A stretch of 64,000 bases of DNA from Thermodesulfobacteriota bacterium (GCA_965232155.1 OZ246948.1:1258938-1322937), one strand, 5' to 3'; counted from the stretch's first letter, positions 24,523 through 58,777 are shown. Program-made: numbers and translations. Notes: generated from the sequence alone by a model not told the origin.

Positions 24523-24608
24523 GCCGAAGTGGCGGAATAGGCAGACGCGCTATCTTGAGGGGGTAGTGCCCTACGGGCGTGCGGGTTCGACTCCCGCCTT
24601 CGGCACCA
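24523..24608 (+). tRNA. tRNA-Leu (anticodon GAG), class II with a long variable arm and an encoded CCA
   Basis: Hand fold: acceptor GCCGAAG/CTTCGGC, anticodon arm CTATC-TTGAGGG-GGTAG, variable arm GCCC-TAC-GGGC, T arm GCGGG-TTCGACT-CCCGC, then A-CCA. Confidence 0.88.
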
Positions 24609-49637: not shown

Positions 49638-50804
49638 TTGAACGTACACGAATACCAGGCCAAAAAGCTTCTCTCTGATTTCGGAGTCAGTGTTCCGGGC
49701 GGGCAGGTTGTTTTCAGCGCGGACGAGGTGTCAGAGGTGCTAGATGCTCTTGACTCCGCGAAGTACGTTGTAAAAGCCCAGATTCACGCAGGCGGCCGGG
49801 GCAAGGGAGGCGGAATAAAGGTAGTTGACAGTGCCCAGGACGCTACGGCGGCCGCGGATGAGATAATCGGCATGAACCTTGTCACCCACCAGACGGGCCC
49901 CGAGGGCAAAAAGGTGGGAAGCGTGCTGATCGAGGAAGCCTCCAGTATAGAGAAGGAGTTCTATCTGGGCATGGTGATTGATCGCTCCCGGGAAAAAGTG
50001 GTCGTTATGGGAAGCCCTGAGGGAGGGGTTGAGATAGAAGAGGTGGCGGCCAAGTCTCCTGAGAAGATAATCAAGGAGCACGTCGATATCTCGCTTGGCA
50101 TTCAGCCTTACCAGTGCCGGAAAATTGCTTATTTCATGGGTCTTGAAGGCGGTGCCGTGAGGCAGGCCGTATCGTTTATTTCCTCTCTTTACCGGGTATT
50201 CATTGAGAAAGACTGTTCCCTCGCTGAGATAAACCCGCTTGTCCTTACCTCAGACGGAAACATAGTGGCTCTCGACGCGAAGATTAACTTTGATGATAAC
50301 GCGCTTTTCCGCCACCGCGACATCGCGGGGCTTAGGGACAGAAACGAAGAGGACTCGCTTGAGCTTGAGGCAAGCGACGCGGGGATAAGTTTTGTTAAGC
50401 TTGACGGAAACATAGGATGTCTTGTTAACGGCGCGGGGCTTGCCATGGCCACCATGGACATTATAAAGCACCACGGCGGAGAACCCGCGAACTTCCTTGA
50501 CGTTGGTGGAGGGGCCACCACGGAGCAGGTGACAAAGGCCTTTAAGATGATCCTGAGCGACGAGAACGTAAAGGCCATCTTCGTTAATATTTTCGGCGGC
50601 ATCATGAAGTGTGACACCATCGCCGATGGTATCGTAGAAGCCGCGGGCGAAGTCGGGATAAACGTTCCCTTAGTGGTCAGGCTTGAAGGAACCAATGTTG
50701 AAGCCGGAAGGGAAATTCTTTCTGACTCCGGTCTTGACATCCAGACCGGAGCTGACATGAAAGAAGCCGCATCCAAAGTGGTTGAGGCCGCTAAAACTGG
50801 CTGA
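49638..50804 (+). CDS. sucC: Succinyl-CoA synthetase beta subunit
   Basis: [28 protein letters not shown] and [18 protein letters not shown]. Confidence 0.93.
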
Positions 50805-50906
50805 TTTTAACGAGTTACAATAGATACTTAATTTGTTTTCTGCGGATATCTGTTCCCTTTAATAGAGCGTACATGCCATGGAGAGAAGGGGTCCTCACCA
50901 GTTGAA

Positions 50907-51770
50907 TTAAAATGTTAGATAAGTTGGCTTGGTATCAATCAAATCTTCGTCTCCATACTCATCGTCTGCGAAGATATCTGATTTGAGAATAGTCAGAGTC
51001 TTACCATAACGACCCAATCCTATGATTTCTTCAATTCCGGGAATACTACGCGAACCGCCGAACCAGTTTTTTAATTCTATCTTCTCTTGCACACGCTTGG
51101 CCCCGACAACGTTCTCTCGGGAGGAATTAAATATTTTGGTTTCGCTTCCTTCTGGAAGCGGGTCTCCTTTGCGTAACCACTCAAACCCTCTGAAATCTCG
51201 GAGGCTGTCAGACATAAAACAGTAATTGATTTTGTTATTAGAACTGACAATCATTGCCACCGGTATCTCCGCCTTTTCAACATATCTGCTAGCCGTGGCG
51301 ATTAAAGAAGTTACAAAACGTTTTGAAAGAGCTTCAACAGCAGCTAGTCCGTCTCCGAGAGATTTCATTTCCCTCGTGAACAGATCGTTAGGCATCAATA
51401 GGGATGCAGCGAATATATCAGCCTCCCGTTCAAATGGGTCATTTGTCGTGAATCCTGCATTTGAAGAGTGAATATCTTTGTGAGCGAGCACCGCGTCAAC
51501 GTGGCTGGGAAGGATGTAATGGCCAATCTCATGGGCTATGGAGAAACGCCTGAAGCCTTCATTCTGAATATGGGTGGCATAGCCAATGCAAAACTCGTTG
51601 CCTTTACGGATAAGCATACCGGAGACCCCACCGTCCGCAGGCATGGATTTTACCATGATATCAAAAGATTCAGCAATCTCAATGGGGTCAATCGGCAGAT
51701 CGGTAATCCCTAGTCTTTTGATAAGCTGTTCAGCTTCCCTGGAGGCTGCGGCCTCTGCCGGTTTTTCCAC
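50907..51770 (-). CDS. ImmA/IrrE-family zinc metallopeptidase (CapP-like)
   Basis: The HEXXH motif in FSIAHEIGHYILPSH plus the downstream EREADIFAASLLMP. It is 4 nt downstream of the XRE gene on the same strand. Confidence 0.8.
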   Translation of the reverse strand: MEKPAEAAASREAEQLIKRLGITDLPIDPIEIAESFDIMVKSMPADGGVSGMLIRKGNEFCIGYATHIQNEGFRRFSIAHEIGHYILPSHVDAVLAHKDIHSSNAGFTTNDPFEREADIFAASLLMPNDLFTREMKSLGDGLAAVEALSKRFVTSLIATASRYVEKAEIPVAMIVSSNNKINYCFMSDSLRDFRGFEWLRKGDPLPEGSETKIFNSSRENVVGAKRVQEKIELKNWFGGSRSIPGIEEIIGLGRYGKTLTILKSDIFADDEYGDEDLIDTKPTYLTF

Positions 51771-51774
51771 GATT

Positions 51775-52131
51775 TTACTCTTTCCCGCTACTTCTGGCAG
51801 CTTTCTCGGCCAGCATTTCTATCACATCTTCCGCAAACTTGCGATCTTTACCTTTAAGTTCGGTAAGATGCCGGTGGATTTCCTCTCCACCGGAGAGACC
51901 TGCCGGGTCATCAACCCTGCCCAGCAGGTAGTCGGTTGTTACTTTCAGTGCGTCGGCAAGCCGTTTCAGGTTATCAAAAGATGGCTTCCGCGCGCCGGTC
52001 TCGAAATGGGAAACTGCTGAAGTCAGAAGCCCCGAGATCTGAGCAAGTTGTGCTTGGTTAAGCTCGCGTAACTTGCGAGCTTCCCGCAGTCTATGAAGAA
52101 AAATCTCTGATGATTTAGTTGACTTTGGCAT
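51775..52131 (-). CDS. XRE-family helix-turn-helix transcriptional regulator (CapH-like)
   Basis: LREARKLRELNQAQLAQISGLLTSAVSHFETGARKPSFDNLKRLADALKVTTDYLLG is a canonical HTH_XRE domain. It is divergent from the nucleotidyltransferase gene. Confidence 0.85.
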   Translation of the reverse strand: MPKSTKSSEIFLHRLREARKLRELNQAQLAQISGLLTSAVSHFETGARKPSFDNLKRLADALKVTTDYLLGRVDDPAGLSGGEEIHRHLTELKGKDRKFAEDVIEMLAEKAARSSGKE

Positions 52132-52166
52132 GACGAAAGCGTAAAATTAATTTGACGTTATCGCCT

Positions 52167-52187
52167 ATATCATTTAGTCTTTGATAT
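52167..52187. promoter_or_regulatory. Inverted repeat ATATCA-N9-TGATAT in the divergent control region; candidate operator of the XRE repressor
   Basis: Read directly in the sequence. It overlaps the minus-strand -10 and a possible plus-strand -10 (TAGTCT). Confidence 0.35.
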
Positions 52188-52213
52188 TATACGGTAGATT
52201 AGCCGATATGCAA
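52186..52213 (-). promoter_or_regulatory. Candidate sigma70 promoter for the XRE-ImmA pair
   Basis: On the minus strand: TTGCAT (52213-52208), 16-nt spacer, perfect TATAAT (52191-52186). Confidence 0.4.
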
Positions 52214-52270
52214 GATTCTGGCAAAGTTGTCTTTAAGAAGGAAAAATTTAAACCATAGGAAGTTTATAAG

Positions 52271-53533
52271 ATGAATAAACAAAGAATCGGGAGATCTTCC
52301 CCACTTTCTGAACCAGTTGATCTGCTTTTAGCGGACATTGCGATTCACATTCAACTCAGCACCACAGATTTTCGTAAGATGGAGGAACGCTACAAAACTC
52401 TTGGAGACTACATTAACCGCCCGGGAAGTTTGCTTGGAGGCAGAGTCCAGCGTGTATATCCGCAGGGTTCAATGGCCATAGGAACAACCGTCGCCTCAAA
52501 GCTTATCAATGATGAGCACGACGTAGATTTTATCGTCCAGCTTCAGTTGAATCCCAATACAGCCCCGAAAAAAGTGCTCGACTTACTCTTCCATAGTATT
52601 CGCGGGAAAGAAGGTTCTCTTTATTTTGGTAAAGTCGAGCGCCGAAACCGCTGCGTAACCGTACATTATGCGGATAAAATGCATGCCGATATAACCCCGA
52701 TGATCCGGGTCCCCGGACCCGAGCGCGAGAGCTTTCTGTTTCATAACAAGCCTAATGCTCTTGAAGAAGACCAAGCATTGATTGCCAACCCTTTCGGTTT
52801 TGCGGAGTGGTTTAAGGAAATTACGTCAGTTGATAAGGAATTTGCCGAGATTTTTGCCATGAGGGCAGGTAGATATGAGGAGCGCATACTGAACATGAGG
52901 GCCGAAAGCGAAGAAATCCCCGATCAGGAACCTATCAATAGCAAGTCTAAAGCCGTTGTGGCTCTACAACTGATAAAACGCTGGCGCAACGTACTGTTCG
53001 ATAAACGTAGCACTCGCCGTCCACCTTCCGTAATGATGAGTAAGCAGGTAGCGGATGCCGCAAATAATACCAGCACGCTTTCCGAGGAATTGCTATATCA
53101 AGCACAGTGCATGCGCGACGAATTGTTTCGGTATCATCAGGCTAGACGGAAAATTCGGGTGTTTAACCCACGCTGTGGCAAGGATGAGTTTACTGACCGC
53201 TGGCCAGGTTCACTATATGAACAAGAAGTTTTCCTTAACGATTTAAACGCTCTTATTGCCGATCTTAACCGTATTAATGCAGGCTGTGACCTTAGAGAAA
53301 TGCGAAAGATAATGATCAGATTGTTCGGAGAAGCTCCTACGGGTGCGGTTTTTGAGATGTTTAACAAGGAACTAGGAAAACGGATAGAAAGCGGGCAGAG
53401 CTATCACAAACCAGACGGTGGGCGCATTTATTTACCTACGAGCGGGATTGTTACTAGCGGGCCTTCGAGATCCGGAGTACGGAGGACTCCAAGAAATACT
53501 TTTTACGGTACGGAAGGGAGGAAGAAGAAATAA
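52271..53533 (+). CDS. CD-NTase/SMODS-like nucleotidyltransferase (candidate cyclic oligonucleotide synthase)
   Basis: Pol-beta-type NTase signature YPQGSMAIGTTV...(14 aa)...DVDFIV, a third acidic residue in VHYADKMHADITPM, and operon partners typical of CBASS. Confidence 0.7.
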   Translation: MNKQRIGRSSPLSEPVDLLLADIAIHIQLSTTDFRKMEERYKTLGDYINRPGSLLGGRVQRVYPQGSMAIGTTVASKLINDEHDVDFIVQLQLNPNTAPKKVLDLLFHSIRGKEGSLYFGKVERRNRCVTVHYADKMHADITPMIRVPGPERESFLFHNKPNALEEDQALIANPFGFAEWFKEITSVDKEFAEIFAMRAGRYEERILNMRAESEEIPDQEPINSKSKAVVALQLIKRWRNVLFDKRSTRRPPSVMMSKQVADAANNTSTLSEELLYQAQCMRDELFRYHQARRKIRVFNPRCGKDEFTDRWPGSLYEQEVFLNDLNALIADLNRINAGCDLREMRKIMIRLFGEAPTGAVFEMFNKELGKRIESGQSYHKPDGGRIYLPTSGIVTSGPSRSGVRRTPRNTFYGTEGRKKK

Positions 53534-53562
53534 GAGTACTCCCAATCAAAGAACAAATAGAT

Positions 53563-53970
53563 ATGATGAGCAAGAGATGGCCTCAATTTAAGGTCTCTTG
53601 GCCAACAAGATGGTTTGTTTCTTGGGAAGGAGTACTTTGCCCCCTTAACAAAAGATATGTTATTCAGGTGGTTTATTGTCTCGGAGCAAATCTCGGCTCA
53701 GTCGAAATATCACCGAAACCCCCTCAAGTTCGAGTTCTTTTTCCTATGCTTGAAAAACGTCCTGAGAATCCAGAAGAATCGATTCCTCATCATTATTTCA
53801 ATCTTGGAAATCCCAACCATCCAATTTTATGCCTGTATGACCCTGGTAAAAAAGAATGGATTCCAAGTAATTATATTGCCGAAACTATACTGCCATGGAC
53901 CATTAACTGGCTGGCATGCTATGAGGGATGGCGTGCAACCGGGGAGTGGAGAGGAGGGGGAAGTCATTGA
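53563..53970 (+). CDS. Stand-alone E2/UBC-fold protein (Cap2-like, E2 only)
   Basis: The linear pattern mirrors the UBC fold: W-EGVL-P...YVIQVVY...PKPPQVRVLFP...PHHY...NPNHPILCLYDPGKKEWIP...ILPWTINWL. The putative catalytic cysteine is Cys90. Confidence 0.6.
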   Translation: MMSKRWPQFKVSWPTRWFVSWEGVLCPLNKRYVIQVVYCLGANLGSVEISPKPPQVRVLFPMLEKRPENPEESIPHHYFNLGNPNHPILCLYDPGKKEWIPSNYIAETILPWTINWLACYEGWRATGEWRGGGSH

Positions 53971-53982
53971 CAGTAAAAACAA

Positions 53983-55074
53983 TTGAAGGATATGAATAAA
54001 GAAATAAACCCTCCGAAGAGATCGTCAGGCACGCTTCAACGCCACCGCATCCTGCAACCTTGGCCAAAGAATCAAATTTTTCGCATCCTTTCCATTGATG
54101 GTGGTGGGATATGTGGAATATTTCCGGCAGTTTTTCTGGCGGAATTAGAAAAACGTTATCTCGGCAACACTTCCATAGCAAGATATTTTGACCTTATTAC
54201 TGGAACTTCGACAGGCGGAATCATTGCGGTCGGGTTAGGGTCCGGTCTTTGTGCTAAAGAGCTTTCCGAAATTTACATCAAGCGTGGATGTGAAATCTTT
54301 CCACCGTCGAATTCAGGATTAGCCGGTATGGTTCAACGTGGCATAAAGAAGTTAAGACATTCTTTACTGTACCACTATGACCGCAAGGCACTTATGGAAA
54401 TACTCCATGAAATCCTCGGCAAACAAAAACTCGGCCAGTCCTGTAACCGACTTTGCATTCCATCTTTTGATGGGCGTTATGGAGAAGTGTACATCTTCAA
54501 AACGCCTCACCACCCCGACTTCCGTAAAGATCATATTGAATTGATGACCAAAGTTGCCGCCGCCACGGCAGCGGCACCAACTTTCTTTAAACCACTTGAA
54601 GATAGAGGCTACACTTTCGTCGATGGCGGAGTATGGGCAGCCAATCCCGTTATGGTTGGCTTAGTTGATGCCGTGTCCTGTTTTGATGTACCAACGGAAA
54701 ACATACGAATCCTGAGCTTGGGATGCAGTAACCATAACTATGCAACAGTTAAAGGGTGGAAAATTTCGATGGGTGGCCTGCTTGTTTGGCGAAACATTAT
54801 CTACGCATCAATGCAACTGCAATCCATGAACGCCTTGGGTCAGGCCGGTCTGCTTATAGGACGGGACAAGATCATACGCATCGCACCTCCAGAAAGCCAA
54901 AGAGTGATCGCCTTAGACGACTGGATACGGGCCAGCGAAGAACTGCCATCTCTTGCGAAAGAGATGGCGGAAGAAAGGGGTATTCAGGTGGCGGAAATTT
55001 TTCTGAAAGATATAACTGACCCCTATGAACCACTCTATTCTGAGAATGAGGAGAACAGTTGCTCCAGTTTCTGA
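53983..55074 (+). CDS. Patatin-like phospholipase (CapV-like effector)
   Basis: Oxyanion-hole motif ILSIDGGGICGIF, nucleophile elbow ITGTSTGGIIA (GxSxG) and catalytic Asp motif FVDGGVWAANP. The start codon is uncertain (TTG at 53983 or ATG at 53992). Confidence 0.85.
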   Translation: MKDMNKEINPPKRSSGTLQRHRILQPWPKNQIFRILSIDGGGICGIFPAVFLAELEKRYLGNTSIARYFDLITGTSTGGIIAVGLGSGLCAKELSEIYIKRGCEIFPPSNSGLAGMVQRGIKKLRHSLLYHYDRKALMEILHEILGKQKLGQSCNRLCIPSFDGRYGEVYIFKTPHHPDFRKDHIELMTKVAAATAAAPTFFKPLEDRGYTFVDGGVWAANPVMVGLVDAVSCFDVPTENIRILSLGCSNHNYATVKGWKISMGGLLVWRNIIYASMQLQSMNALGQAGLLIGRDKIIRIAPPESQRVIALDDWIRASEELPSLAKEMAEERGIQVAEIFLKDITDPYEPLYSENEENSCSSF

Positions 55075-55227
55075 TAACCGTCTGGAAGAGTACGGAAAGG
55101 AAGGTCACAAGCACAGGATTCATTTAGGTGATTCGGTGGCGATGTGCCGGTCGGCTTATGCAAATCTCAGGCGATTGGATGCGTCAAACATTCTTTGGTG
55201 TTTAAAGAGACTGTTAAGATAACAATT

Positions 55228-55254
55228 GTGCAAACGAAAACTTGCACTTTTATT
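55228..55254 (+). terminator. Candidate rho-independent terminator after the patatin gene
   Basis: GTGCAA-acgaaaac-TTGCAC hairpin followed by TTTTATT. The stem is short (6 bp). Confidence 0.35.
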
Positions 55255-55405
55255 GAGTTAAATCAGTCGGACCGTGCTTTTTAAAACAGCTTTGTAAGTG
55301 GTAACCCCCGGATGGCGAGAGAAATCATTCTATTTCAGGAAATTATGACAAATATCTAATCTTGTTTCTATTAGTTTTTCTCTGTTTTTGTTTTATCCCG
55401 AAACC

Positions 55406-55433
55406 TTGACATAACCCTTTTGATGATTAGTTT
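55406..55433 (+). promoter_or_regulatory. Candidate sigma70 promoter for rpoH
   Basis: TTGACA (55406-55411), 16-nt spacer, TAGTTT (55428-55433). Confidence 0.3.
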
Positions 55434-55455
55434 GAAAAGTGGAGGTACATGTTAG

Positions 55456-56316
55456 ATGCAAACGGCAGTTGCCACGTGCGATTCTCTCTCGGTTTTCATG
55501 CGAGAGATGGAAAAACATCCGCTTATCTCAAAAGAGGAAGAGTATGCGCTTGCGGTCAAATATTACGAAAACGAAGATCTTGAAGCGGCCAACAAGCTTG
55601 TGGTGTCAAACCTAAGGTTCGTAGTGAGAATCGCTTCTGAGTACAGATCTTACGGTTTTCCGATGATGGATCTTGTTCAAGAAGGTTCGATAGGACTGAT
55701 GCGCGCCGTTCAAAAATTCAACCCTTACAAGGGGTACAGGCTCATATCCTACGCGGTGTGGTGGATCAGGGTAAGGATCCAGAACCACATAATGAAGTTC
55801 TGGAGCAACGTTAAGATCGGAACAACGCAGTCCCAAAGAAGGCTTTTCCAGAGAATAGAAGGGGCAAAGCGCAAACTCGGGATAACCGCCGCTAACATGG
55901 AAGATGACGACATAAGCCGCCTGGCGGACCATTTTGGCGTTAACGAAGAGGATATCTCCGAGATGCAGGTCCGCGCTTCCAAAAGGGATCTTTCCCTCTC
56001 GGAGCGTCCCGCAGGGGACGACTCCTCGGCTACTTACGTGGAGTTGCTTCCCGATCCGTCGGATAACCAGGAGCAGGTGCTCGGTGAACTCGGGTTTGAC
56101 AGTCTTGCCAGGGAGAATCTGCGCGAAGCTCTCGAGACGCTTTCAGAGAGGCAGAAAAAGGTGATAAACGAGAGGTATTTCACCGAACCTCCAAGAAAAC
56201 TCCACGAAATAGCCCGTGATCTCGGGGTTTCCCAAGAGAGGGTAAGGCAGATACAGGCCGAATCCATAGGGAAACTCAGGGGGTACATGGCCGAAAGACT
56301 TGAAATTCACCCGTAA
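55456..56316 (+). CDS. rpoH: RNA polymerase sigma-32 (heat-shock) factor
   Basis: Region 2 is DLVQEGSIGLMRAVQKFNPYKGYRLISYAVWWIRVRIQNHI, followed by the RpoH-box-like TQSQRRLFQRIEGAKRKL. Region 4 is LHEIARDLGVSQERVRQI. Confidence 0.85.
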   Translation: MQTAVATCDSLSVFMREMEKHPLISKEEEYALAVKYYENEDLEAANKLVVSNLRFVVRIASEYRSYGFPMMDLVQEGSIGLMRAVQKFNPYKGYRLISYAVWWIRVRIQNHIMKFWSNVKIGTTQSQRRLFQRIEGAKRKLGITAANMEDDDISRLADHFGVNEEDISEMQVRASKRDLSLSERPAGDDSSATYVELLPDPSDNQEQVLGELGFDSLARENLREALETLSERQKKVINERYFTEPPRKLHEIARDLGVSQERVRQIQAESIGKLRGYMAERLEIHP

Positions 56317-58381: not shown

Positions 58382-58777
58382 ATGTTTAAAGAGGTTTCTG
58401 TAGATTGGAAACAAGTCTCCTTTTATAAACCGGATGATATTCCCTTTCTGGACAAAACATTAAGCGGTGTCTATTTGATTTGGGATGGTAGAATGGGAGA
58501 AGTTATTTATATTGGGAGAGGAAATATATTTCAACGTTTAAGTGACAATTTTAGCGATGAACATCTTAAATTTCATCTTGACAATCGTTATATGTATTTA
58601 ACGTATTCTTCTGTTCCAGAACAAAAACAAGCTGGATTACTACGTTATTTGACAGAAAAGTATGAGCCATCCATAAGGAATTATGATTCACTCACGGAAA
58701 TCATTAAACCAAACTACGGTCCCCCCGAGATTCCTTATCTTAAAGTTTATCCAGCAGAGCTAAAACTGCTGAAATAA
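58382..58777 (+). CDS. Small GIY-YIG-like domain protein in an AT-rich spacer
   Basis: SGVYLIWDGRMGEVIYIGRGNIFQRL matches the GIY-(x10-11)-YIG spacing. AAGGAGG RBS upstream. Nothing else is recognisable. Confidence 0.45.
   Translation: MFKEVSVDWKQVSFYKPDDIPFLDKTLSGVYLIWDGRMGEVIYIGRGNIFQRLSDNFSDEHLKFHLDNRYMYLTYSSVPEQKQAGLLRYLTEKYEPSIRNYDSLTEIIKPNYGPPEIPYLKVYPAELKLLK

What the first reader, a model, noticed from the sequence alone, without database searches (positions are those of the whole stretch)
50907..55254. CBASS-like anti-phage operon with a CapH/CapP-type regulator pair, inserted between sucC and rpoH
Five adjacent genes in AT-richer DNA form a coherent module. On the minus strand, an XRE HTH regulator (51775-52131) is followed 4 nt later by an ImmA/IrrE HEXXH metallopeptidase (HEIGH, 50907-51770). 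Transcribed divergently is a Pol-beta-fold nucleotidyltransferase with the GS...DVD and third-Asp pattern of CD-NTase/SMODS enzymes (52271-53533). It is followed by a 135-aa UBC/E2-fold protein (53563-53970) and a patatin phospholipase with the GGGxxG, GxSxG and DGG motifs (53983-55074). CD-NTase plus patatin (CapV) is the classic CBASS signalling and effector pair. An XRE-repressor plus ImmA-protease pair has been described as the DNA-damage-responsive CapH/CapP switch of some CBASS operons. An E2-only accessory gene corresponds to the poorly populated 'type II short' class. Finding all three layers together in one compact island inside a central-metabolism locus makes this the most promising system in the window.
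Basis: partly seen in the sequence, partly recalled or inferred. Interest (0 to 1): 0.8.

Follow-up and report, generated by a model that had tools for sequence, protein, structure and literature searches.

The report
E2-type CBASS island with CapH/CapP switch
This is an intact, horizontally acquired five-gene anti-phage CBASS operon (cyclase, small E2-like regulator, phospholipase killer, plus a DNA-damage-responsive repressor/protease pair) of a type that has already been catalogued and biochemically characterised in other bacteria, so it is a solid but ordinary find.

Summary
All five ORFs sit at the stated coordinates and each matches its CBASS profile strongly: CapP 2e-63, CapH 8e-23, cyclase 8e-140, E2 3e-41, phospholipase 1e-106. 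The cyclase is a clade-G-like CD-NTase, closest to BdCdnG (7LJN). Its GS, DxD, third-Asp and GTP-lid residues are invariant, and it keeps the conserved C-terminal Gly413. The small protein is the E2 of E2-only ("type II short") CBASS and matches SmE2 (8HSB) in sequence and fold. The effector is a CapV patatin lipase.

Synteny with two relatives shows sucC directly followed by rpoH-dnaK, so the 4.6-kb, low-GC block is a real insertion. A closer relative carries the same island at the same site. All five genes are under purifying selection (dN/dS 0.14-0.23).

Lau et al. list 141 "Type II short" systems with CapH/CapP, many with phospholipase effectors.

The minor unusual points are:
- The E2 ends exactly at the pH-sensor His, so it lacks the Lys-bearing tail.
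- The E2's ancestral start codon is lost although its N-terminal codons stay conserved.
- Divergence inside the island is mosaic.

Verdict: new member of a known kind, with low interest.

The parts
50805..55400 (.). Extent of the inserted island, from the sucC stop to just upstream of the conserved rpoH promoter.
   Evidence: L001 and L002 have sucC and rpoH only about 230-290 bp apart. The rpoH promoter/leader is conserved from window ~55404 onward. Island GC is 0.451 against 0.51-0.54 in the flanks, and GC3 is 0.34-0.48 against 0.59-0.67. No tRNA, integrase or flanking direct repeat was found.
50907..51770 (-). capP: ssDNA-stimulated Zn-metallopeptidase of the IrrE/ImmA fold (peptidase + linker + GAF). 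Predicted ligands are H80, E81, H84 and E114. It has no cysteine switch; His97 lies at that position.
   Evidence: PADLOC capP 2.4e-63, covering profile positions 4-241 of 242. Pfam Peptidase_M78 1e-13. PDB 7T5T CapP 1e-11 over residues 48-260. Motif positions.
51775..52131 (-). capH: XRE-type HTH repressor with a C-terminal oligomerisation region.
   Evidence: PADLOC capH 7.6e-23 over profile 4-101 of 103. Pfam HTH_3 1e-13. PDB 7T5U (CapH N-terminal domain) 3.5e-4. It is 95% identical in L082 and 69% identical in L086.
52132..52270 (.). Divergent promoter region of 139 bp (GC 0.32). On the minus strand the candidate capH promoter is TTGCAT (52213-52208), a 16-nt spacer, then TATAAT (52191-52186). 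On the plus strand the candidate CBASS promoter is TTGACT (52119-52124), a 17-nt spacer, then TAAAAT (52142-52147).
   Evidence: The sequence was read. The plus-strand site comes from the consensus scan. The minus-strand site was read by eye and is an inference.
52154..52165 (+). Candidate CapH operator GACGTTATCGCC. A degenerate second copy, GACGAAAGCGTA, lies at 52132-52143. Together they frame the palindrome CGTAAAAT-TA-ATTTGACG at 52140-52157.
   Evidence: The exact motif GACGWTATCGYC occurs once in the 64-kb window, here. It occurs once in L082 at the same place and at three sites in the L086 capH/cdnG intergenic region (CapH 69% identical). Only 3 matches occur in the other 81 loci. The palindrome is unique in the window.
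52271..53533 (+). cdnG-like CD-NTase of 420 aa. Key residues are G66-S67, D84/D86 and D140, the lid D305...D309, a disordered loop at 211-222, the conjugation Gly413 in PRNTFYG, and a 7-aa basic tail TEGRKKK.
   Evidence: PADLOC Cyclase PDLC00800 8e-140. Pfam SMODS 3e-12. PDB 7LJN BdCdnG 4e-60 and 8HSB SmCdnG 1e-11, with PRNTFYG aligned to PKNTFYG. The AF2 model (pLDDT 77) against 7LJN gives E 6e-26 and TM 0.87. The listed residues are invariant in 41 homologs.
53530..53970 (+). E2 (CBASS E2-only regulator). The first ATG is at 53563 (135 aa), but the conserved frame is open from ATA at 53530 (146 aa). His76 aligns with SmE2 H87, Cys90 with C101, Ser134 with K151, and the C-terminal His135 with H152. 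There is no K159 loop.
   Evidence: PADLOC E2 PDLC00877 2.5e-41, or 1.9e-44 with the extension. PDB 8hsb_B 4e-8. The AF2 model against 8hsb_B/8yjy_B gives TM 0.66-0.68 at probability 1.0. Residue mapping, and the start-codon comparison.
53983..55074 (+). capV: patatin-like phospholipase effector with oxyanion hole GGGICG 40-45, nucleophile Ser76 (GTSTG) and Asp214 (DGG).
   Evidence: NCBIfam CBASS_lipase equivalog at 229 bits, above the 200-bit cutoff. PADLOC phospholipase effector 1.4e-106. Pfam Patatin 5e-20. PDB CapV 8ZR9 8e-33.
55228..55254 (+). Terminator-like hairpin GTGCAAacgaaaacTTGCAC followed by TTTTATT, downstream of capV.
   Evidence: Terminator scan and the sequence itself.

Best explanation
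This is a functional, horizontally acquired E2-type (type II short) CBASS anti-phage operon under CapH/CapP transcriptional control. Every step below is inferred by homology; none is shown for this locus.

1. CapH binds GACG-N4-CGYC sites in the 139-bp divergent promoter. This keeps cdnG-E2-capV (and probably capH-capP) at a low level.
2. Phage replication or DNA damage produces single-stranded DNA. The ssDNA activates the CapP metallopeptidase, which cleaves CapH and de-represses the operon.
3. The E2 (Cys90/His76) acts as a cysteine protease. It cuts the cyclase after Gly413, removing TEGRKKK, and takes the cyclase C-terminus as a thioester. It then passes it to lysines, forming cyclase chains, which primes or activates the enzyme. 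Because this E2 lacks the K151/K159 tail, it cannot park the cyclase on its own C-terminal lysine.
4. On infection, the clade-G cyclase makes a guanine-containing cyclic dinucleotide (3'3'-cUMP-GMP or 3'2'-cGAMP type). Cleavage of the exposed loop 211-222 by a phage protease may also contribute to activation.
5. The nucleotide activates the CapV patatin lipase (Ser76/Asp214). CapV degrades the membrane and aborts the infection.
For: - All five proteins match the specific CBASS profiles nearly end to end, and CapV passes NCBI's equivalog cutoff.
- The cyclase is closest to BdCdnG in sequence (4e-60) and fold (TM 0.87), and the E2 is closest to SmE2.
- The catalytic and regulatory residues defined experimentally in SmCdnG/SmE2 are C101, H87, H152, G406, D84 and D86. 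Their equivalents are present here and invariant in homologs.
- The donor-GTP lid motif (D/E)xxxD of clade G10 is conserved as D305...D309.
- The gene order, with capP-capH divergent from cyclase-E2-lipase, is the layout described for CapH/CapP systems. It recurs in L082, L085 and L086.
- dN/dS is 0.14-0.23 for all five genes against L082.
- The operator-like motif is confined to the capH/cdnG intergenic regions of loci with related CapH.
- The insertion and its foreign composition were shown.
Against: - There is no experimental evidence for this locus.
- The nucleotide product is not predictable: BdCdnG makes 3'3'-cUMP-GMP, while As-, Sm- and EcCdnG make 3'2'-cGAMP.
- The E2's canonical start codon is missing (ATA/GTA where relatives have ATG/GTG), so E2 may be made at low level or N-terminally shortened.
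- The E2 lacks the C-terminal loop, and deletion of that loop (K151-R162) abolished immunity in the Serratia system. That deletion also removed H152, which is kept here.
- CapP lacks the cysteine-switch residue on which the published ssDNA-activation model is built.
- The C-terminal E2-binding motif of the cyclase is modelled with low confidence (pLDDT below 50 from residue 389).
Confidence: 0.88

Rival explanations
1. The operon is a decaying or silenced relic. The loss of the E2 start codon and of the E2 C-terminal loop has disabled E2-dependent activation, so the island no longer defends the cell.
For: - The ancestral E2 start (ATG/GTG overlapping the cyclase stop in L081, L084, L085 and L086) is GTA/ATA in the window and L083, and GCG in L082.
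- Deleting SmE2 K151-R162 abolished immunity.
- Gene callers skipped the E2 in L082, L084 and L086.
Against: - All five ORFs are intact and every catalytic residue is present.
- dN/dS of E2 is 0.14 and of the cyclase 0.19 at dS of 0.43-0.65, which means long-term purifying selection.
- The 11 codons upstream of the ATG are still conserved as protein, and a GGAGG site sits about 9 nt before ATA 53530.
- Tail-less E2s ending in GGxH recur in 13% of family representatives, including natural cyclase-E2 fusions.
- An in-frame ATG at 53563 gives a 135-aa product that still scores 2.5e-41 against the E2 profile.
Confidence: 0.07
2. The XRE/ImmA pair is a generic ImmR/ImmA module left by a prophage or integrative element. 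It does not regulate the CBASS genes, and the juxtaposition is coincidental.
For: HTH + M78 pairs are common in phages and ICEs. Both proteins hit phage regulator PHROGs at 4e-17 and 4e-18.
Against: - The CapP-specific profile scores far higher (212 bits, full length including the GAF part) than any phage family (63 bits).
- No phage, integrase or ICE genes are in the island.
- The pair is divergently adjacent to the cyclase in the window, L082, L083, L085 and L086, as in the published survey.
- A motif shared with L086 lies only in that intergenic region.
Confidence: 0.03
3. The operon is a working CBASS whose E2 is produced, at least partly, as a cyclase-E2 fusion. A -1 ribosomal slip on the A-run at the cyclase stop (AAG AAG AAA TAA) would create the fusion, and the E2 domain would then cut itself free at Gly413.
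For: - The E2 frame is the -1 frame of the cyclase and stays open across the junction.
- An A-run followed by a stop codon is conserved in four loci (AAG AAA AAA TAA in L081 and L082).
- The canonical start is missing but the N-terminal codons are conserved.
- Natural cyclase-E2 fusions of 569-571 aa exist with NTFYG, a ~20-aa linker and then E2.
- SmE2 cleaves anything fused after the conserved Gly.
Against: - There is no canonical slippery heptamer in the window or L083.
- The GGAGG about 9 nt upstream of ATA fits ordinary (non-AUG or re-initiation) start selection.
- More distant relatives use normal overlapping ATG/GTG starts.
- There is no downstream stimulatory structure and no experimental data.
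Confidence: 0.05

Closest known systems
Serratia marcescens E2-CBASS (SmCdnG-SmE2; PDB 8HSB/8YJY; Yan et al. 2024; Xiao et al. 2026, PMC12948482)
   Same: - It has an E2-only accessory protein with no E1 or JAB.
- The E2 fold matches (TM 0.66-0.68), and the Cys (C90 = C101), catalytic His (H76 = H87) and pH-sensor His (H135 = H152) are all present.
- The cyclase C-terminus PRNTFYG aligns with PKNTFYG, including the conjugated Gly (G413 = G406).
- The cyclase is long (420 aa) with an extra C-terminal helix and strands.
   Different: - The effector is a CapV lipase, not 2TM-SAVED.
- The E2 stops at the His and lacks the 150-160 loop with K151/K159.
- The cyclase tail to be removed is 7 residues (TEGRKKK), not 1.
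- The cyclase shares only about 19% identity with SmCdnG over the Foldseek structural alignment of the model to 8HSB/8YJY.
- The Serratia operon was not described with CapH/CapP.
Bradyrhizobium diazoefficiens CdnG (BdCdnG, clade G10; PDB 7LJN) and its E2-CBASS operon
   Same: - It is the closest solved cyclase (E 4e-60; model TM 0.87).
- The GS/DxD/D residues and the (D/E)xxxD donor-GTP lid are the same.
- It belongs to an E2-CBASS operon.
- Lau et al.'s Table S1 lists Bradyrhizobium type II short systems with CapH/CapP.
   Different: - The structure-based alignment gives about 32% identity.
- The B. diazoefficiens rows seen in the part of Table S1 that was read carry an endonuclease effector and a 'minimal CapP', whereas here the system has a phospholipase and a full-length CapP.
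- The product of the window enzyme is unknown; BdCdnG makes 3'3'-cUMP-GMP.
CapH/CapP regulators of CBASS (E. coli MS115-1, Thauera sp. K11; Lau et al. 2022; PDB 7T5T, 7T5U)
   Same: - An HTH repressor plus an M78/IrrE-like peptidase with a GAF domain, encoded divergently from the core CBASS genes and sharing the promoter region.
- The HExxH and third Glu ligand are conserved.
   Different: - CapP here lacks the cysteine-switch Cys. His97 aligns with Thauera C113, and only 33% of CapPs have the switch.
- CapH has Phe43 where E. coli CapH has the CapP-contacting Trp35 (assigned by eye from the HTH motif, not from an alignment).
- The characterised examples control type III (HORMA) CBASS.
CapV, the cGAMP-activated patatin phospholipase (Vibrio cholerae, Acinetobacter baumannii; PDB 8ZR9 and related)
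   Same: Patatin fold motifs and the Ser-Asp dyad are present. It passes the NCBIfam CBASS_lipase equivalog cutoff.
   Different: The studied CapVs respond to 3'3'-cGAMP from clade-A DncV-type cyclases. This one is paired with a clade-G cyclase, so its ligand may differ.

Membership tests
CBASS (any type) | CD-NTase with the Pol-beta catalytic GS...[DE]x[DE]...[DE] residues and the CD-NTase fold | tested here: met
   SMODS 3e-12 and PADLOC Cyclase 8e-140. G66-S67, D84, D86 and D140 are invariant in 41 homologs. The AF2 model matches 7LJN with TM 0.87.
CBASS (any type) | Adjacent effector gene in the same operon | tested here: met
   capV lies 13 nt after the E2 on the same strand and matches NCBIfam CBASS_lipase at 229 bits, above the 200-bit cutoff.
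CBASS (any type) | Cyclic oligonucleotide synthesis and phage protection | not testable with these tools
   This needs LC-MS of products and plaque assays.
Type II short / E2-CBASS | Stand-alone E2-fold protein with the catalytic Cys and His, and no E1 (Cap2) or JAB (Cap3) gene | tested here: met
   PADLOC E2 2.5e-41. 8hsb_B matches by sequence (4e-8) and fold (TM 0.68). C90 and H76 are invariant in A1. The island holds only five genes, none of them E1- or JAB-like.
Type II short / E2-CBASS | Cyclase with a conserved C-terminal glycine for conjugation and a C-terminal E2-binding helix + beta-sheet motif | tested here: met
   G413 in PRNTFYG aligns with SmCdnG G406 and is invariant. The model shows helix 354-373 and strands 378-380 and 385-387, but confidence is low beyond residue 380, so the motif part is only partly supported.
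Type II short / E2-CBASS | E2 C-terminal loop with the isopeptide-acceptor lysine (SmE2 K159). This is a feature of the studied example, not of the class. | tested here: not met
   The protein ends at His135 (= SmE2 H152) and has no Lys after K97. Of 148 family representatives, 19 are likewise tail-less.
Type II short / E2-CBASS | Covalent cyclase-E2 thioester/isopeptide formation and C-terminal processing | not testable with these tools
   This needs co-expression with SDS-PAGE with and without DTT, plus mass spectrometry.
Clade G CD-NTase (CdnG) | Phylogenetic placement with clade G references, and the clade-G10 lid-3 (D/E)xxxD motif | tested here: inconclusive
   The best PDB hits by sequence and fold are BdCdnG and then SmCdnG. 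D305...D309 are invariant. No formal tree with the A-H reference set was built.
CapH/CapP regulatory module | XRE-HTH repressor plus M78 HExxH peptidase with a C-terminal GAF domain, divergent from and sharing a promoter with the defence operon | tested here: met
   PADLOC capH 7.6e-23 and capP 2.4e-63, both full length. HEIGH is at 80-84 and E114 is present. The divergent intergenic region is 139 bp. 7T5T aligns over residues 48-260.
CapH/CapP regulatory module | Internal cysteine-switch loop in CapP (present in about 33% of members) | tested here: not met
   His97 aligns with Thauera C113, and the only cysteines are C61 and C184. This is not required for membership.
CapH/CapP regulatory module | CapH binding to the promoter, and ssDNA-stimulated cleavage of CapH by CapP | not testable with these tools
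   The only support is a candidate operator motif restricted to the intergenic regions.
CapV patatin effector | Patatin GGGxxG oxyanion hole, GxSxG nucleophile and DG[GA] Asp | tested here: met
   GGGICG at 40-45, GTSTG at 74-78 and DGG at 214-216. PDB CapV 8e-33.

The most novel reading that the evidence does not exclude
This sub-lineage of E2-CBASS regulates its E2 in a way not yet described. The E2 has lost both its canonical start codon and the lysine-bearing C-terminal loop. It would therefore be made only by non-AUG re-initiation at the cyclase stop (ATAA), or by a -1 slip giving a self-cleaving cyclase-E2 fusion. It also cannot park the cyclase on its own tail. The E2 dose and the thioester-to-chain step, not the K159 'storage' bond, would then set the activation threshold.
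Probability: 0.12. Interest if true: 0.45.

Novelty: new member of a known kind. Interest (0 to 1): 0.2.

Why it matters
The find adds an intact E2-type CBASS with a CapH/CapP switch to an uncultured lineage. The nearest sucC relatives are a Dadabacteria MAG and a MAG labelled Spirochaetia, each only about 70% identical. The source contig is about 1.5 Mb.

It also shows that the sucC/rpoH gap is a variable insertion site in that lineage. For defence biology it is a confirmation, not a discovery, because the architecture, the regulator pair and the E2 mechanism are all published.

Two features could interest people working on E2-CBASS. One is the naturally tail-less E2. The other is the lost start codon with a conserved N-terminus. 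Together they offer a natural variant for testing what the E2 C-terminal loop and E2 dosage contribute.

Tried and rejected
- **Exact-sequence look-up of the window's cyclase:** it is not on record, so the source genome could not be named.
- **Mobility signatures:** there is no tRNA gene nearer than 24.6 kb (the window's two tRNA genes are at 1359-1433 and 24523-24608). There is no integrase or transposase ORF in the island, and no convincing flanking direct or inverted repeats; all repeat families look like chance. The insertion mechanism is unknown.
- **Rfam scan of 50600-55600:** no hits at E <= 1.
- **Plasmid collection (tblastn with the cyclase):** only relatives below 40% identity, so no known plasmid carries this cassette.
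- **Operator:** I first took the 18-bp palindrome CGTAAAAT-TA-ATTTGACG (unique in the window) as the operator. Comparison with L086 points instead to GACG-N4-CGYC sites, whose inner halves form that palindrome. Both remain candidates.
- **Sigma factor:** I considered that the sigma-70 gene next to capV might be the CBASS-associated sigma factor noted by Lau et al. in 24 systems. I rejected this because it is the core rpoH, present next to sucC and dnaK in relatives without the island.
- **Pfam on the E2:** no hit in the local copy, although relatives carry a precomputed PF26395 'E2-CBASS' label.
- **orf131:** no hit in Pfam, NCBIfam or PHROGs.
- **Word-indexed homolog search with the E2:** it found only 7 proteins. 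The exhaustive profile search was needed to see the family of 1312.

Full report
**1. The observation**

Four nucleotides separate the two minus-strand genes.

The quoted motifs are all present:
- CapP has HEIGH at 80-84.
- The nucleotidyltransferase has QGS at 65-67, DVD at 84-86 and a third Asp at 140.
- The patatin protein has GGGICG at 40-45, GTSTG at 74-78 and DGG at 214-216.

The block is AT-richer than its surroundings. Its GC is 0.451, against 0.544 to the left and 0.514-0.541 to the right. Third-codon-position GC is 0.34-0.48 for the five genes, against 0.59-0.67 for sucC, sdhA, rpoH, dnaK and aceE.

**2. Identity of the five proteins**

| Protein | PADLOC model and E-value | Profile coverage |
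|---|---|---|
| CapP | capP, 2.4e-63 | 4-241 of 242 |
| CapH | capH, 7.6e-23 | 4-101 of 103 |
| Cyclase | PDLC00800, 8.1e-140 | 4-418 of 420 |
| E2 | PDLC00877, 2.5e-41 | 15-139 of 150 |
| CapV | phospholipase effector, 1.4e-106 | 2-329 of 331 |

- Pfam agrees, with Peptidase_M78, HTH_3, SMODS/DncV-like NTase and Patatin.
- NCBIfam places the lipase above the equivalog cutoff of 'CBASS cGAMP-activated phospholipase' (229 bits against a cutoff of 200).
- Against solved structures, the cyclase is closest to 7LJN (4e-60), the Bradyrhizobium diazoefficiens clade-G enzyme. Next come a cGAS-named chain and SmCdnG of the Serratia CdnG-E2 complex (1e-11).
- The small protein matches only the E2 chain of that complex (8hsb_B, 4e-8).
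- The lipase matches CapV structures (8e-33), and the peptidase matches CapP 7T5T (1e-11) ahead of IrrE.
- AlphaFold2 models give the same answer by fold. The cyclase model (pLDDT 77) matches 7LJN with E 6e-26 and TM 0.87. The E2 model (pLDDT 70) matches 8hsb_B/8yjy_B with TM 0.66-0.68 at probability 1.0, and the next hits are insignificant.

**3. Residue-level checks against the characterised systems**

Yan et al. (bioRxiv 10.1101/2022.05.25.493364, the preprint of Nat Microbiol 2024) showed how SmE2 works:
- It is a cysteine protease and conjugating enzyme.
- C101 and H87 are catalytic, and H152 is a pH sensor.
- It removes the residue after G406 of the cyclase and carries G406 as a thioester.
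- It then forms an isopeptide bond to K159 in a C-terminal loop (residues 150-160) or to lysines of other cyclase molecules.

The window proteins map as follows:
- The cyclase motif PRNTFYG (407-413) aligns with SmCdnG PKNTFYG (400-406), so Gly413 is the conjugation glycine.
- Gly413 is invariant in 41 homologs, together with G66, S67, D84, D86, D140, D305 and D309.
- D305...D309 is the (D/E)xxxD lid motif. In BdCdnG (E305/D309) this motif reads the guanine of donor GTP.
- After Gly413 comes a 7-residue basic tail, TEGRKKK. Tails of this kind (e.g. TERRKKK) are typical of the clade.
- In the E2, His76 corresponds to H87 and Cys90 to C101. Ser134 corresponds to K151, and the last residue, His135, to H152.
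- There is no equivalent of the 153-162 tail and no lysine after K97.
- Close relatives also end in GGxH.
- In an exhaustive profile search the family has 1312 members at E <= 0.001. Of 148 representatives whose C-terminus was reached, 19 (13%) have at most two residues after that His. The rest have tails of 3 to more than 60 residues. Three are natural cyclase-E2 fusions of 569-571 aa.
- The tail-less form is thus a recurrent minority variant. None of the E2s in the papers read here (SmE2 studied biochemically; BdE2 and GjE2 only modelled) was described as tail-less.

CapP has HEIGH plus Glu114 (the equivalent of Thauera E129). It has His97 where Thauera CapP has the cysteine-switch Cys113. 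Only a third of CapPs have that switch.

**4. It is an insertion**

The two nearest sucC relatives found in one-genome-per-species contigs are L001 (a MAG labelled Spirochaetia) and L002 (a Candidatus Dadabacteria MAG). They share about 70% sucC identity with the window. Both have the order sdhC-sdhA-sdhB-sucC-rpoH-dnaK, with only about 230-290 bp between sucC and rpoH.

The rpoH promoter/leader is conserved from window position ~55404 onward. The sigma gene is rpoH by NCBIfam (283 bits against a cutoff of 241). It belongs to the core genome and is not a CBASS-associated sigma factor.

The wider flanks are aconitase, isocitrate dehydrogenase, malate dehydrogenase, sdhCAB and sucC on one side. 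On the other side are rpoH, dnaK, aceE and aceF.

No tRNA, integrase or flanking repeat marks the island.

**5. A closer relative and signs of exchange**

L082 is a closer relative: dnaK is 95% identical at the protein level, aceE 91% and rpoH 86%. It carries the same five genes at the same place, at 90% DNA identity over 4150 nt. It also has an extra DprA-like gene between sucC and capP. Upstream, sucC matches only from residue 124 and is preceded by RES-domain and other accessory genes. The sucC/rpoH gap is therefore a variable site in this lineage.

dN/dS between the window and L082 is 0.14-0.23 for all five genes, so the genes are maintained by selection.

Synonymous divergence is mosaic:

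| Genes | dS |
|---|---|
| capP, capH, capV | 0.12-0.19 |
| cdnG, E2 | 0.43-0.65 |
| rpoH, dnaK | 0.58-0.80 |

This points to recombination within the cassette.

Two other metagenomic loci, L081 and L083, have cyclase-E2-lipase at 76-91% protein identity. They sit next to DDE transposases in unrelated contexts, and their M78 proteins are only 31-38% identical and shorter. The core genes and the regulators are thus exchanged separately.

**6. The regulatory region**

The 139-bp divergent region (GC 0.32) contains several candidate elements:
- A near-consensus minus-strand promoter for capH, read by eye: TTGCAT, 16 nt, TATAAT.
- A plus-strand consensus match, TTGACT-17-TAAAAT.
- The motif GACGTTATCGCC at 52154-52165.

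The exact pattern GACGWTATCGYC occurs only once in the 64-kb window, at that position. It occurs once in L082 at the same position. It occurs at three sites in the otherwise unalignable, GC-rich capH/cdnG intergenic region of L086, whose CapH is 69% identical. It has only three matches in the other 81 loci held.

A degenerate copy, GACGAAAGCGTA, lies 22 bp away. The two copies frame the palindrome CGTAAAATTAATTTGACG. This is the best candidate CapH operator, but that is an inference.

**7. Comparison with what is known**

- E2-only CBASS is a recognised class, reported in 616 genomes, with 74% of its cyclases in clade G. The cyclases are longer because of a C-terminal E2-binding motif (PMC12948482).
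- CapH/CapP were described by Lau et al. as a repressor/protease pair. It de-represses CBASS when ssDNA activates CapP.
- Their Table S1 lists 141 rows of 'Type II short' systems with CapH/CapP. Many have phospholipase effectors, and one is drawn in their Fig. 1A.
- The same layout was found here in L086 (separate CapH and CapP) and in L085 (a CapH-CapP fusion).

**8. Most likely mechanism (all steps inferred by homology)**

1. CapH represses the operon.
2. ssDNA from phage replication or DNA damage activates CapP, which cleaves CapH.
3. The E2 trims the cyclase after Gly413, carries it on Cys90 and promotes cyclase-cyclase conjugation.
4. The cyclase makes a G-containing cyclic dinucleotide.
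5. CapV destroys the membrane.

The trigger of catalysis may also include cleavage of the exposed loop 211-222 by phage prohead proteases. That loop has pLDDT below 50 and lies between helices 189-210 and 227-243. Hobbs and Kranzusch report such activation loops in nearly all clade-G enzymes.

The product cannot be predicted. BdCdnG makes 3'3'-cUMP-GMP, while As-, Sm- and EcCdnG make 3'2'-cGAMP.

**9. One unresolved detail**

The cyclase stop TAA (53531-53533) overlaps an in-frame ATA in the E2 frame. The following 11 codons (I R V L P I K E Q I D) lie before the first ATG at 53563. They are conserved as protein in the window, L081, L082 and L083, with about as many synonymous as non-synonymous differences among them.

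Adding those codons raises the E2 profile score from 139 to 149 bits and moves the match start from profile position 15 to 5.

More distant relatives start there with an ATG or GTG that overlaps the cyclase stop. L081 has GTG, but the window and L083 have GTA and L082 has GCG.

A GGAGG sits about 9 nt before the ATA, and no Shine-Dalgarno sequence sits before the ATG at 53563.

There are three possibilities:
- The E2 starts at a non-canonical codon by termination/re-initiation.
- It is made shorter, from the ATG.
- Less likely, it is made as a fusion by a -1 slip on the A-run.

This does not change the classification. It is the only feature that might repay an experiment.

**10. Verdict**

The system is a new member of a known, already characterised kind, and interest is low (0.2).

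Noticed in passing
L082:1-8000 (ENA ERZ25070917 ctg123036), compared with window 50006-50906: A related organism carries the same island at the same site. It also has a DprA-like gene (DNA_processg_A, 2e-53) between sucC and capP. Its sucC matches only from residue 124, preceded by RES-domain, P4-cII-like and GIY-YIG genes. The sucC/rpoH gap looks like a hotspot for accessory DNA, and sucC may be disrupted there.
   Followed up: partly
window 50907-55074 vs L082 6636-10771: Synonymous divergence within the island is mosaic. dS is 0.12-0.19 for capP, capH and capV, but 0.43-0.65 for cdnG and E2. Core genes rpoH and dnaK are at 0.58-0.80. This suggests the cyclase-E2 pair and the rest of the cassette have different histories through recombination.
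   Followed up: partly
window 53515-53565: The E2's ancestral start codon is replaced by ATA/GTA, overlapping the cyclase TAA stop as ATAA. The 11 upstream codons stay conserved as protein and fit the family profile, and a GGAGG lies about 9 nt upstream. This points to non-AUG initiation or re-initiation, or possibly a -1 slip on the A-run. Gene callers skipped the E2 gene in L082, L084 and L086.
   Followed up: partly
window 53953-53970 (E2 C-terminus): The E2 ends at the His equivalent to SmE2 H152, so it lacks the loop with K151/K159. Of 148 family representatives, 13% are tail-less in the same way. Another 58 carry C-terminal extensions of more than 60 residues and unknown function, and 3 are cyclase-E2 fusions.
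   Followed up: partly
window 58382-58777 (+): A 131-aa ORF lies between dnaK and aceE in very AT-rich DNA (GC 0.34). It has no hit in Pfam, NCBIfam or PHROGs. By eye it has a GIY-YIG-like 'GVYLIW...VIYIGRG' motif. L082 has a different 91-aa ORF at that position, so this may be a second small insertion.
   Followed up: partly
L081:3614-4996 and L083:4003-5397: Cyclase-E2-lipase cassettes at 76-91% protein identity sit next to DDE_Tnp_1_4 transposases in unrelated contexts (NACHT and pentapeptide-repeat proteins). Their M78 peptidases are short (125/175 aa) and only 31-38% identical. Core genes and regulators are therefore shuffled independently.
   Followed up: partly
window 49638-50804 and L001/L002: sucC is not followed by sucD in the window, L001 or L002. 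rpoH, or the island, comes next. The succinyl-CoA synthetase alpha subunit must be encoded elsewhere in this lineage.
   Followed up: no
window 51480-51482 (CapP residue 97): His97 occupies the position of the Zn-binding cysteine-switch residue of Thauera CapP (C113). Whether a histidine could play the same autoinhibitory role is unknown.
   Followed up: no
window 52901-52936 (cyclase residues 211-222): A low-confidence, acidic surface loop (AESEEIPDQEPI) lies between two long helices. It sits where clade-G cyclases are reported to carry a protease-sensing activation loop. It is shorter than the ~30-residue loop of EcCdnG.
   Followed up: no
L085:7880-10981: A more distant member of the same CBASS clade (CapH-CapP fusion, cyclase, E2, patatin) lies next to a 1033-aa Eco57I/N6_Mtase type IIG restriction-modification gene, which is a typical defence-island context.
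   Followed up: no
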